Below are positions 19,366 to 55,024 of a stretch of DNA of 64,000 bases, one piece after another. A program made the position numbers and the translations under genes. This DNA is from Eledone cirrhosa (Eukaryota). Where the stretch lies: positions 84,320,001 through 84,384,000 of the forward strand of contig OZ024743.1 in the NCBI GenBank assembly GCA_964016885.1. Direction: 5' to 3'. How positions within the stretch are numbered: the stretch's first letter is position 1; every line of letters starts with the position of its first letter. The notes beneath the pieces were generated by a model, which saw nothing but the letters and a program-made list of their open reading frames with translations, was not told the origin of the DNA and searched no databases.

Positions 19366-20340
19366 ATTATAATAATAATAATAATGAAATTATTGTGTAC
19401 AGTGCTCAGGTGCACTACAACTCATCAAAGGTGCATGTATAGTACATAGAATAATGTACAAATGTCAGGAAAATAAACAGTGTATGAGTCATGATATAAT
19501 AACAATAACAATAATGAAATATTGTGTACAGTGCCCAGGTGCACCACAACTCATCAAAAAAGTGCATGTACAGTACATAGGGCAATGCACAAACATCAGT
19601 AAAATGAACAGTGCACGAGTCATGATACACACATGTGTGCATGTGTATGGAAGGGGTACATCAGGTGTAGTTTTGGCGTGTTTCGGGAAGCATGAGTGTC
19701 TTAAAGGATGCAGTGTCTCGGCAGCTAACAATTGACGCAGGCAGTTTGTTCCATGCTTCAGCAACTCTGAGCGTGAAAAAATGTCTGCGAAAGTCATGGG
19801 AGCTGTGCTGTTTTCTTATCTTGTAGGCATGTCCACGTGTGTTAGACACATGGAGATCAAAGAGGCGCTCAGGGTTGCAGTTGGCGAGATGGTTAAAAAC
19901 TTTGTGGGTATTCACCAAGTCCATTGCTAGACGTCGGAGCTTCAATGAATCCATGCCCAGGGAAGCAAGGCGTTCAGAGTATGGTAGGTGTCTGATGGAG
20001 GGTATGCGCTTGGTTGCACGTCTCTGAACAGTTTCCAGGAGGTCAATGTTCCGAGCAAGATAGGGGTTCCAGACTGATGATGCGAATTCCAAGTGTGGTC
20101 GTACCATAGCTGTACACAGCTTTAAATAGATGGCTGGAGAGCGGCTAACAAAGGTCTTGCTGAGTGATGCCAAGATACCCTCGGCCTTCTTGACAATCTT
20201 AGAGACATGCTTTGTCCAACGCAAATCGTTGCTGACAGTAATGCCCAGGTCACGTTCACAAGAGGACTTTTTGATGTCAGTGTTGTGGAGGGAGTATGTG
20301 GACGCTGGATTTTTCCTTCCAAAATGCATGGTGGTACACT
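19366..20340 (-). mobile_element. 5'-truncated CR1-clade LINE: open ORF2 C-terminus, 3' UTR, (ATT)n tail; tail fragments also at 3057-3150 and 46522-46568
   Basis: ORF 19661-20356 contains KCTTMHFG, ERDLGITVS, VRPHLEFASSVWNPY, LETVQRRATK and RRHFFTLRVAEAWNKLP, typical of the CR1 ORF2 end. Confidence 0.9.
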
Positions 20341-20788
20341 TAATGACTTCAGTCATTTTCGCTTAATCATTTTATTTACATTATTCTCAAAATCCATAGC
20401 TGGAAATCATTCGGTTATTCTAAATAGAATATTAGTCTACTGATTTTTTTTCATGTTTTTCTTTACAAGAAATTGTTCTTCCACATAATGACGTAATTAT
20501 CATCGCATATTTTTCGTCCATCGGCAGAGAACGTCTTCAAGAACTAACATATCATCTTCCCGTTTTCCTTCGGTTGTAACGTTTTTTTAAATATTTAATT
20601 TCTGCGTCTACAGATTGATTTTCCTTAGTTTCAGAAGATCCCGTAAAAGAGTGAAAGCAGCGATTCTTTGCTTAAACTTTAATCTGTACATATAATAAAT
20701 ATTTGTTCTATGGGTTTATTTATATATATATATATATATAATCCTTATCGGGCCCTCTTCGGATTTAAGTCTTCACATTTATTATTAC

Positions 20789-24548: not shown

Positions 24549-24783
24549 ATATATATATATATATATACACACACATACGCACACTGTAAATGTGGTTGGT
24601 GTTAGGAAGGGCATCCAGCTGTAAAAAACCCACCCAAAATACAATTCCATTTGAGCAAGGTACTGCACGGTCAACTGACCAGACTTTTATATCATAACGT
24701 GGAGGACCCATCTAACCCATGCAAAAGTGAGAAAATAGACATTAAATGGTAATGATGATGATATAAATATATATATATATATA

Positions 24784-24902
24784 AATTACAACTATATCAC
24801 GCTGAAAACACCGGATCTCATCCGATCACCGAAGTTAAGCAATGTTGAGCCGAGTTAGTACTTAGATGGGTGACCGCTTGAGAAACCTAGTTGCTGTAAG
24901 CA
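24784..24902 (+). pseudogene. 5S rRNA retro-copy (near full length, mutated)
   Basis: tatcacgctgaaaacaccggatctcatccgatcaccgaagttaagc...gttagtacttagatgggtgaccgcttgagaaacc...gtaagca aligns end to end with animal 5S. It shows CpG-type changes and a G>A in box C, and is followed by a T-tract. Confidence 0.9.
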
Positions 24903-25150
24903 TTTCCTTTTTTCCGTCTAAACCATGCTAGCATGGAAAATGGACGTTAAACGGTGATGATGATGATGATATATGTATATGCATGTGTATATGCTGACAT
25001 AGGTGAGACAGGTGATCACAGACAAAGTCAGTATTTTGTTAGATCTATTGTCCTCCCAAATGGGTTGGGGAGGGGGCTCACTTCAATTATATAGCTTCTG
25101 ATGTTGGCACAGTTTCTACAATTGGATGCTCTTCCTATCACCATAGATGC

Positions 25151-53036: not shown

Positions 53037-53040
<4 letters not shown>

Positions 53041-54982
53041 AGAGGTTTGCCAATGTTCTGCGACGGGAAGATCAGATGCGTGCAGTGTTCCACATTGCAA
53101 GGCAGTGTGTCAGTGCAAATCAGGATGTTGTTGGAGATAAATGTGTCCGGAATGATGCCGGTGTACTTAGTGTCACGAATGATCAGAAAAAGGAGACCTG
53201 GAAATGTCATTATGAGAGACTGATGAATGTGGAGAACGAATGGGAGAGAGAGAAATTACCCTCAGTAGATTCGACAGAGGGACCAGCTATTGAGATTGAC
53301 GAATATAGGATCCAAGAGGTGATTAAGGAAATGAAAAATGGTAAGGCTGCTGGACCATCGGGAATAGTTGCTGAGATGCTGAAGGCATCAGGGGACGTAG
53401 GCACTAAACTGGTTGCACGCATCATCAATCAGGCTATATATGGTGGTGTCATACCCAAAGACTGGAGCAGCAGTATTCTCATAAATTGCTACAAAGGTAA
53501 AGGGGATGCTCTGGAGAGGCGCAATTATAGGGGTATAAAACTGATGGATCAGGTTATGAAAGTGGCAGAAAGGATATTAGCACAACTAATTAGAGAAAGG
53601 GTCAAACTAGATGAGATGCAGTTTGGCTTTGTGCCTGGGAAGAGTACAACAGATGCCCTCTGCTTGGTGAGACAATTGCAAGAGAGGTTCTTAGAGAAAA
53701 ATAAGCCACTATACTTAGCCTTTGTTGACCTAGAAAAGGCCTTTGATAGGGTACCCCGATCTGGTCATCTGGTGGTCCCTAAGGAAACTAGGTGTTGAGG
53801 AATGGCTTGTGAGGACAGTGCAAACTTTGTACAGAGGTACTGTCAGTAAAGTCAGGGTAGGAATGGAGTTTAGTGAGGAATTCCAGATACAAGTAGGAGT
53901 ACATCAAGGTTCGGTCCTCAGCCCGCTCTTGTTCATTATAGTCCTCCAAGCCATAACAGAGGAGTTTAAGACTGGCTGTCCATGGGAACTTCTCTATGCT
54001 GACGATCTGGTTCTTATAGCAGAATCAGTAGAGGAGCTAGAGAATAAATTCTGGCTATGGAAACAGCAGTTGGAAACAAGAGGACTGAGAGTGAACTTAG
54101 CTAAGACAAAAGTGTTGATAAGTAGAAAAGAGGACAAAACTCTGATTCCATCAGGGAAATAGCCATGTTCGATATGCAGAAAAGGAACTGGCATAAATTC
54201 TATAAAATGCACACAATGCAGATCCTGGGTACACAAGAGATGTAGCGGGATAGCAGGCAAACTAACAGGTAAGGAGAAATACGTATGCAGTAGATGTACA
54301 GGGAAATTAGACAGTAGAAGTCGCATTGATAGACTCATTTTTCAAATGCAGGCGGGTGCTATAGAAGTGGTGGATAGCTTCCAGTACCTAGGAGATCAGA
54401 TTAGCATGGGAGGGGGGTGTTCCGAGGCCATAGTATCTAGAATAAGGACAGGTTGGAAGAAGTTTAGGGAGCTGCTTCCTCTGCTGACAAAGAAGGGTTT
54501 CTACTTGCGTATGAAAGGCCGGTTATATGATGCCTGTGTGAGGAGCACGATGCTGCATGGTAGTGAGACTTGGGCAGCAACTGCAGAGGATATGCGACGG
54601 CTGGAGAGAAATGAGGCAAGCATGCTCCGTTGGATGTGAAATGTCAATGTGTGTGAATGATCCAGCATGAATGTGTTGAGAGAGAAACTGTGTCTGAGAG
54701 GGATAGAATGTTGTGTATGGGAGAGGAGACTGAGGTGGTATGGACATGTGATGCGCATGGAGGATGACTGATGGGTGAAGAAGTGTCAGAAAATGCCAGT
54801 TGAAGGAAGACGTGGTAGAGGTAGACCACGAAAAACATGGGCGGAGGTGGTGAGAACAGACCTCAGATCGCTGAAGCTCACGGTGGAGATGACGAAGGAC
54901 CGTGACAAGTGGAGAGATGGTGTGATGAATAAGACCCATCCCACCCTTGCAAGCAGGGAAGAGCGGACGTAAAATGATGATG

Positions 54983-54984
<2 letters not shown>
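53037..54984 (+). mobile_element. 5'-truncated RTE LINE (RTE-A): RT domain, PHD-like finger and C-terminus; inactivated
   Basis: Motifs NYRGIKL, QFGF, FVDLEKAFDRV, GVHQGSVLSPLLF, YADDL and RGRGRPRKTW. Frameshift near 53760 and several stops. Tail ggacgtaaaa(tga)n, (TA)n on both sides. Confidence 0.95.

Positions 54985-55024
<40 letters not shown>

What the first reader, a model, noticed from the sequence alone, without database searches (positions are those of the whole stretch)
24784..24970. 5S rRNA-RTE chimera: 5S copy, oligo-T, then a 57-nt RTE 3' tail, inserted in (TA)n
Seen: a near-complete 5S sequence, then tttcctttttt, then ccgtctaaaccatgctagcatggaaaatggacgttaaacg(tga)n, the RTE-B-type tail, with AT repeats on both sides. 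Established: mammalian U6/L1 and 5S/L1 chimeras have this layout, and 5S-headed SINE3 families exist. Inference: either an RTE-made chimera with a 3'-extended 5S transcript or a member of a 5S-derived, RTE-mobilised SINE family. I know of neither in cephalopods.
Basis: partly seen in the sequence, partly recalled or inferred. Interest (0 to 1): 0.72.

Follow-up and report, generated by a model that had tools for sequence, protein, structure and literature searches.

The report
5S precursor fused to retrotransposon tail
A decayed copy of the small ribosomal 5S RNA, still carrying the extra end of its unprocessed form, is joined to the last few dozen bases of a jumping gene, likely because the copying enzyme hopped from one RNA to the other; it is one of over a hundred such fusions with differing seams and partners in this genome, a known kind of accident rather than a new mobile family.

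Summary
The element is a full-length sense 5S copy (Rfam 89.6 bits), an 11-nt trailer, and a 57-nt tail shared with RT-encoding, RTE-type LINEs. The trailer is a real 5S gene flank: a relic gene with the same haplotype carries it. Of 155 distinct dispersed 5S copies collected, 129 are fused to a retroposon 3' part: 23 to this tail, 36 to a second LINE's tail, 61 to SINEs, 9 others. No antisense partner was found. Trailer follows 5S haplotype (V 0.80); partner does not (V 0.24, p 0.11). No pair shares more than two private substitutions. U6 and pre-tRNA-Sec are captured likewise. Junctions cluster at the foot of each LINE's terminal stem-loop. Likely mechanism: template jump during reverse transcription onto pre-5S RNA; RNA ligation is not excluded. 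A T6 terminator makes this copy a likely dead end. No target-site duplication or empty site could be shown for this locus. Same kind as U6/L2, U6/RTE and U6/SINE chimeras of platypus and lizard; not found in print for cephalopods, but this scan already noted the phenomenon on other DNA of this genome.

The parts
24784..24902 (+). Full-length, decayed 5S rRNA copy; old haplotype T79/A81/T95/A102/T112/A119; C box unchanged, A box with two CpG-type changes, intermediate element with one change
24903..24913 (+). 3' trailer of the 5S primary transcript (TTTCC + T6); contains a Pol III terminator-type T run
   Evidence: same trailer on gene relic L363 with the same haplotype and real gene flanks and on one array copy, L042/L043
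24914..24953 (+). RTE-type 3' tail core; predicted stem-loop 24915-24946 (-11.3 kcal/mol, no shuffle control); junction 1 nt before the predicted stem
24954..24970 (+). G + (TGA)n terminal repeat of the tail
   Evidence: same repeat ends the RT-encoding LINEs
24761..24783 (.). (TA)n target tract on the left; no target-site duplication can be told in it
24580..24762 (+). Neighbouring 5'-truncated non-autonomous RTE-tailed element; a separate insertion by inference
53039..54987 (+). Context: broken RTE-type LINE fragment (RT, PHD finger) ending in a homologue of the tail and (GAT)n

Best explanation
This is a chimeric 5S retrocopy, likely made in one insertion event when an RTE-type LINE reverse transcriptase copied the last ~57 nt of an RTE-tailed RNA at a TA-rich site and then likely jumped onto the U-rich 3' end of an unprocessed 5S transcript and copied it to its 5' end. 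Shown: the layout; the trailer is a 5S gene flank; the tail ends RT-encoding LINEs; more than a hundred sibling fusions differ in trailer, junction and partner; all identified partners are sense; SINE-type siblings often sit in one target-site duplication. Inferred: single event at this locus, target-primed reverse transcription, template jump rather than ligation, RTE clade of the enzyme, and that the T6 run would stop Pol III before the tail so that the copy cannot spread.
For: (1) 129 of 155 distinct dispersed 5S copies carry a retroposon 3' part: RTE tail only 23, second LINE tail 36, whole SINE 53, part SINE 8, longer RTE-tailed piece 5, third LINE 4; 12 have no partner, 13 unidentified, 1 fold-back (4 segmental duplicates and 6 records with gene flanks dropped from 165). 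In the set chosen on the 5S body alone, 54 of 62 are such fusions. (2) Library hits within 50 nt: 125 of 155 sense, 0 of 155 antisense; 0 of 129 have three or more TA units between 5S and partner. (3) Haplotype vs trailer V 0.80 (0 of 5000 permutations), haplotype vs partner V 0.24, p 0.11 (n 83). Young copies identical to variants of either present-day array carry that array's trailer (L050, L279). (4) 110 of 129 fusions reach 5S position 12 or earlier, and upstream gene flank was detected only on 4 loci set aside as gene copies. (5) Target-site duplications of 8 nt or more around 5S+SINE in 11 of 24 SINE_A fusions against 5.6% in mismatched pairs. (6) No pair of 128 copies shares more than 2 private non-CpG changes; the window copy shares at most 1. 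(7) U6 and pre-tRNA-Sec with trailer are fused to the same partners. (8) Whole SINEs are joined at their own 5' ends (53 cases), which fits end-to-end jumping; RtcB ligation needs a cyclic phosphate and a 5'-OH and is reduced by a 5' triphosphate (PMC6789731, passages).
Against: No target-site duplication for this locus or class: RTE-tail 2 of 21 (both low complexity, background 4.8%), second LINE tail 0 of 25, SINE_B/naRTE 1 of 26. The AU test does not reject a single clade of RTE-tail copies (p 0.317, 109 columns, no well-supported branch; 16 changes vs 17.6 shuffled), and labels 'second LINE tail' and 'SINE' are somewhat clustered on the tree (0 and 6 of 500 shuffles as low). Trailer vs partner is weakly associated (V 0.29, p 0.044). 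The RTE-tail breakpoint is nearly fixed (19 of 23 within 2 nt of the stem), as a family would also show; 10 of those 23 came only through the window-junction query. Two junction strings recur (2 and 4 copies). No empty orthologous site was seen. Clade names rest on architecture and recall, not on a tree.
Confidence: 0.72

Rival explanations
1. Same independent chimera, but the two RNAs were ligated first (RtcB-like) and then retrotransposed as one template.
For: Shown for human U6/L1 (PMC6789731, passages). Very sharp junctions (31 of 35 at three to four adjacent positions of the second LINE's tail) fit a defined RNA 5' end. An earlier scan note (e1-9544130) reports U6 joints at predicted ribozyme cut sites.
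Against: 5S trailers vary from 2 to 17 nt and 11 copies have oligo(A) ends, which fit 3'-OH trimming and tailing intermediates (inference); 53 fusions join at SINE 5' ends, which would be triphosphorylated as Pol III transcripts (own knowledge). No Rfam ribozyme at the one long RTE-tailed junction scanned (L059) or in the window.
Confidence: 0.13
2. The copy belongs to a small 5S-headed, RTE-mobilised SINE3 family spread from one master.
For: 23 copies share the layout and a near-fixed tail start; monophyly not rejected; 5S-RTE SINEs exist (CoeSINE5, HaSE3, SINE-1_Pmo; PMC5786205 passages); about 24,000 5S-derived loci in giant squid were called likely SINEs (PMC6962438 passage).
Against: The 23 copies have 23 different junction strings and four 5S haplotypes, each shared with other partners; no shared private changes; T6 run between head and tail; low copy number (62 exact matches to a 35-nt 5S stretch genome-wide, 5 of them RTE-tail).
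Confidence: 0.08
3. Two separate insertions: a 5S retrocopy first, then a truncated RTE tail at its 3' edge.
For: Tail-only solo insertions and partner-less 5S copies in TA tracts both exist (12 of 155); this locus has no readable target-site duplication.
Against: It would need about 83% of dispersed 5S copies to be hit at the exact edge, always sense, never leaving TA units between; sibling fusions share one duplication.
Confidence: 0.07

Closest known systems
U6/L2, U6/Mon-1 (platypus) and U6/RTEX-2, U6/L2, U6/AnolisSINE2 (Anolis) chimeric pseudogenes (Doucet et al. 2015, PMC4476161; passages read)
   Same: Small Pol III RNA 5' and sense, joined to a short 3' piece of a stringent LINE or its SINE; several LINE clades in one genome; small or no target-site duplications; template switching proposed.
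   Different: Acceptor is 5S with its precursor trailer (term '5S rRNA' has 0 hits in that paper); mostly full-length heads; invertebrate host; breakpoints clustered at the foot of the terminal stem-loop.
Human U6/L1 and 5S/L1 chimeras (bioRxiv 10.1101/2025.02.02.635956 and PMC6789731, passages read; Buzdin 2002/2003 seen only as citations)
   Same: Recurrent, independent events that do not self-propagate; U6/L1 layout is full-length and sense.
   Different: Human 5S parts are reported as often antisense and truncated, L1 parts variably long; here 5S is sense, near full length, 3'-extended, and the LINE part is minimal.
5S-headed, RTE-tailed SINE3 families: CoeSINE5, HaSE3, SINE-1_Pmo (PMC5786205, PMC3272025; passages read); Ped-1 (5S head recalled, listed in PMC5786205 as bipartite RTE)
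   Same: 5S head with Pol III internal promoter plus RTE 3' end; proposed to arise by template switch.
   Different: Those are families from a master copy with a body; here no body, no shared junction, T-run between head and tail.
[quoted passage not shown]
   Same: A non-LTR RT continues cDNA on the 3' end of a separate RNA.
   Different: Shown in vitro for R2; not tested for these enzymes.

Membership tests
Small-RNA/non-LTR chimeric retropseudogene | Small RNA copy 5' of, and sense to, a LINE/SINE 3' end | tested here: met
Small-RNA/non-LTR chimeric retropseudogene | RNA-derived head: starts at +1, no upstream gene flank | tested here: met
   first two bases differ and abut the TA tract
Small-RNA/non-LTR chimeric retropseudogene | Independent events: junctions and partners differ between copies | tested here: met
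Small-RNA/non-LTR chimeric retropseudogene | One target-site duplication or empty site around both parts at this locus | tested here: inconclusive
   not readable in TA tract; 11 of 24 in SINE_A siblings, at background in RTE-tail class; no empty site
SINE3 (5S-derived SINE) | 5S head with A box, intermediate element and C box | tested here: met
   slightly decayed
SINE3 (5S-derived SINE) | LINE-derived 3' tail | tested here: met
SINE3 (5S-derived SINE) | Many copies from a master: shared junction and diagnostic changes | tested here: not met
   23 different junctions, four haplotypes, no shared private changes; tree test lacks power
SINE3 (5S-derived SINE) | No Pol III terminator between head and tail | tested here: not met
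   T6 at 24908-24913; read-through not measured
SINE3 (5S-derived SINE) | Transcribed as one RNA | not testable with these tools
   no RNA holder listed
RTE clade (tail donor) | Single ORF with apurinic endonuclease and RT, very short 3' end with tandem repeat | tested here: met
   L270: 1032-aa open frame, Exo_endo_phos + RVT_1 + PHD, tail homologue and (GAT)n at its end
RTE clade (tail donor) | Groups with named RTE elements in an RT tree | not tested
   no named reference on hand; Atlas and PDB gave only generic LINE-type hits
Functional 5S gene | Tandem array, upstream flank, near identity to array copies | tested here: not met
   dispersed, no flank, 87% to array copy L031

The most novel reading that the evidence does not exclude
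Three unrelated LINE tails in this genome give off a discrete 50-65-nt RNA that begins at the foot of the protein-bound terminal stem-loop; the reverse transcriptase runs off its 5' end and jumps to nascent U-tailed Pol III transcripts (pre-5S, U6, pre-tRNA), which mass-produces head-plus-tail SINE prototypes. Terminator-free ones would be nascent SINE3 masters, and the series is a fossil record of three successive 5S gene variants (mean 6.5, 2.8 and 1.4 substitutions).
Probability: 0.35. Interest if true: 0.62.

Novelty: new member of a known kind. Interest (0 to 1): 0.36.

Why it matters
The single copy is a fossil with no sign of function. The set matters more: it shows the step proposed for SINE birth (small-RNA head added to a LINE tail) happening repeatedly with three LINE machineries in an invertebrate, with about half or more of the copies lacking a T4 run before the partner (77 of 129) and so able in principle to found a family. 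It records 5S precursor 3' ends, including oligo(A) ends, and older 5S gene variants absent from the array copies sampled. It also warns that cephalopod '5S-derived SINE' counts may include such independent chimeras.

Tried and rejected
Searched for an array of the old A81 haplotype: 62 exact matches, all dispersed or paired; 0 of 71 array contexts sampled carry it; the arrays were only partly sampled and may be collapsed. The 17 identical-trailer matches on C16/C18/C19/C20 first looked like genes; the 6 fetched are a 5S fragment inside a LINE piece, read as one duplicated insertion, and were dropped. The top RT family (945 aa) is not the tail donor; it supplies a different tail. Apparent antisense partners were a library artefact (a passenger element in my SINE_B2 entry); after trimming, 0. 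The solo RTE-tail survey gave only 8 solo hits, 3 of them probably body-bearing, too few to test. Rfam e-value scan of six tail loci gave only microsatellite noise. Ribozyme lead: none at L059. Sequencing runs: no RNA holder listed; contigs of four runs showed no orthologous empty site, repeats dominate. Tree test of monophyly uninformative. ARAGORN found nothing in the window. Literature: searches listed no paper describing 5S/LINE-tail chimeras in cephalopods; subscription papers (Ohshima and Okada 1994, Akasaki 2010, Gogolevsky 2008), Repbase and all supplements were not seen and could hold such a description.

Full report
Observation. The window holds, on the + strand, a 5S-like stretch at 24784-24902, an 11-nt pyrimidine run at 24903-24913 and a 57-nt tail ending in (TGA)n at 24914-24970. 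Rfam matches the whole 5S model, 89.6 bits, E 6.5e-18. The left flank is (TA)n after the (GAT)n end of another RTE-tailed element; the right flank is an imperfect TA/TG tract.

Real 5S genes. The Rfam search of the genome found two arrays: C4:92.5-93.1 Mb (about 870-bp unit, trailer TTTAATTTT) and C14:42.77 Mb (inverted pairs, trailer TTTATCTTTT, one copy TTTCCTTTT). None of 71 array contexts sampled has the A81 variant of the window copy. A lone relic, L363, has upstream and downstream gene flanks, the window's haplotype (A81, T95, A102, T112, A119) and the trailer TTTCCTTTT; a three-copy relic array, L112, is similar. That 5S is made with a U-rich 3' extension, bound by La and trimmed, is stated in PMC6315592 (passages).

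The tail. It occurs 15 times in the window alone. A broken LINE at 53039-54987 has an RT and a PHD finger and ends in a homologous tail. A genome copy, L270, has a 1032-aa open frame with endonuclease, RT and PHD and the same end. Of 18 loci with a closer tail variant behind the LINE-end motif, 15 show tblastn similarity to the RT frame, 14 of them directly upstream of the tail. The architecture is that of RTE elements; the clade was not tested by a tree (searches gave generic hits). By eye the chimeric tails match the non-autonomous RTE-tailed elements better than the LINE copies.

The siblings. The junction query gave 40 scored matches of 988 candidates; 17 of the 30 loci fetched carry this tail, each with another junction. 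To avoid that bias I sampled on 5S alone: 19 matches; 127 matches, 100 listed, 27 unseen; the pattern's last letter excludes some; 59; 62. This gave 165 distinct non-array records with an intact 3' end; 4 segmental duplicates and 6 gene-flanked records were dropped. Of 155, 129 carry a retroposon 3' part: whole SINE 53, tail of a second LINE 36, RTE tail only 23, part SINE 8, longer RTE-tailed piece 5, third LINE 4. Twelve run straight into (TA)n, 13 are unidentified, one folds back. Nine class calls were set by hand. In the set 54 of 62 are fusions, 5 with the RTE tail only. The second and third LINEs were traced to RT-like frames; 'CR1-group' is my recalled label. SINE_A and SINE_B are my labels; one SINE_B-like head in the window matches tRNA weakly.

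Family or accidents. Trailer follows 5S haplotype (V 0.80, 0 of 5000 permutations), partner does not (V 0.24, p 0.11); trailer and partner are weakly linked (V 0.29, p 0.044) (n 83). Young copies match variants of either array and carry that array's trailer. The 23 RTE-tail copies have 23 junction strings and four haplotypes. Among 128 copies no pair shares more than two private non-CpG changes. Only two junction strings recur (2 and 4 copies). Three haplotype-trailer groups have mean 6.5, 2.8 and 1.4 substitutions, the last matching the present C4 array; the window copy belongs to the oldest. Against this, a tree on 109 columns cannot reject monophyly of the RTE-tail copies (p-AU 0.317) and shows some clustering of the other labels, which may reflect age waves.

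One event or two. Library hits near the 5S end are sense in 125 of 155 and antisense in 0 of 155, and no fusion has a TA tract between its parts. Eleven of 24 SINE_A fusions sit inside a duplication of 8 nt or more against 5.6% for mismatched pairs; the RTE-tail, second-LINE and SINE_B classes are at background, as they mostly insert in TA tracts. For the window locus a single event is therefore inferred, not shown; no empty site was found.

Mechanism. Junctions are sharp: 19 of 23 RTE-tail junctions lie within 2 nt of the stem's G and all within 6; 13 of the 23 were reached by 5S-only searches. For the second LINE, 31 of 35 lie at positions 887-890, against 8 of 21 tail-only solo copies (Fisher p 1.6e-4). 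Both third-LINE tail fusions start at one position near a predicted stem. Of 30 loci drawn from 743 exact matches to the second tail, 23 lack the LINE body and two carry U6 or pre-tRNA-Sec with trailer. Of 16 non-array U6 copies, 8 carry the same partners, judged by eye. I read this as the RT reaching the 5' end of a short tail RNA or a whole SINE RNA, or stalling after the stem-loop, and jumping to a free U-rich 3' end, as shown in vitro for R2 (PMC8857657, passages). Ligation as in human U6/L1 (PMC6789731, passages) remains possible. The T6 run would end Pol III transcription before the tail (established terminator rule, not measured), so this copy is likely a dead end.

Comparison and verdict. 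It works like, and meets the tested features of, the small-RNA/non-LTR chimeric pseudogenes that Doucet et al. describe for L2, RTE-like elements and SINEs (PMC4476161, passages). It fails two SINE3 features. Kojima proposes such switches as the origin of SINEs and lists 5S-RTE families (PMC5786205, abstract and passages; PMC4494074, PMC3272025, passages). A mollusc SINE paper (PMC4758252, passages) and an octopus LINE paper (PMC9115989, passages) showed no such chimera in the passages seen; the giant squid paper mentions about 24,000 5S-derived loci as likely SINEs without analysis (PMC6962438, passage). Searches listed no cephalopod report; no supplements were read. Earlier notes of this scan describe the same phenomenon elsewhere in this genome. 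New member of a known kind; modest interest.

Noticed in passing
L345:1576-1660 (-): tRNA-Sec copy with its 3' trailer ending in a T run, fused to the second LINE's tail.
   Followed up: partly
L260, L261, L267, L352, L258, L264, L269, L242, L263: U6 copies fused to the same tails and SINEs; U6 array at G000:C19:31.78-31.84 Mb.
   Followed up: partly
L274, L276, L281, L282, L312, L318, L321, L359, L380, L024, L115: 5S with oligo(A) after 0-2 nt; all 11 are joined to whole SINEs, none to LINE tails. Unexplained; may be oligoadenylated 5S.
   Followed up: partly
62 dispersed sites: A81/T95 5S variant (a possible compensatory pair) in dispersed copies, absent from 71 sampled array contexts; either an extinct or an unassembled gene class.
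   Followed up: partly
L326 (G000:C28:66800000-66801700): 5S plus trailer followed by an inverted piece of the 5S 5' end, next to a second, opposite 5S-SINE fusion.
   Followed up: no
L310, L327: 5S copies with the true upstream gene flank and a 5'-clipped SINE directly at position 119: DNA-level gene copies.
   Followed up: partly
L174-L179, L077: 5S 3' half with long trailer inside a LINE 3' piece, repeated at 17 listed sites on C16, C18, C19, C20 at about 100-kb spacing on C20.
   Followed up: partly
window 53039-54987: RTE-type LINE with a PHD finger between RT and C-terminal part; 150 scored copies of a 99-aa piece at 94-100% identity.
   Followed up: partly
L016, L128, L262, L265, L259, L266, L147, L268: 5S or U6 joined to unidentified partners, some resembling each other (possible further LINE families); L268 is AT-rich and unassigned.
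   Followed up: no
L031:1620-1760: The C4 array spacer holds a degenerate repeat of the 5S 3' part followed by a TTTCC-type trailer.
   Followed up: no
window 19670-20347 (-): Fragment of the dominant 945-aa LINE, 85% identical at protein level.
   Followed up: no
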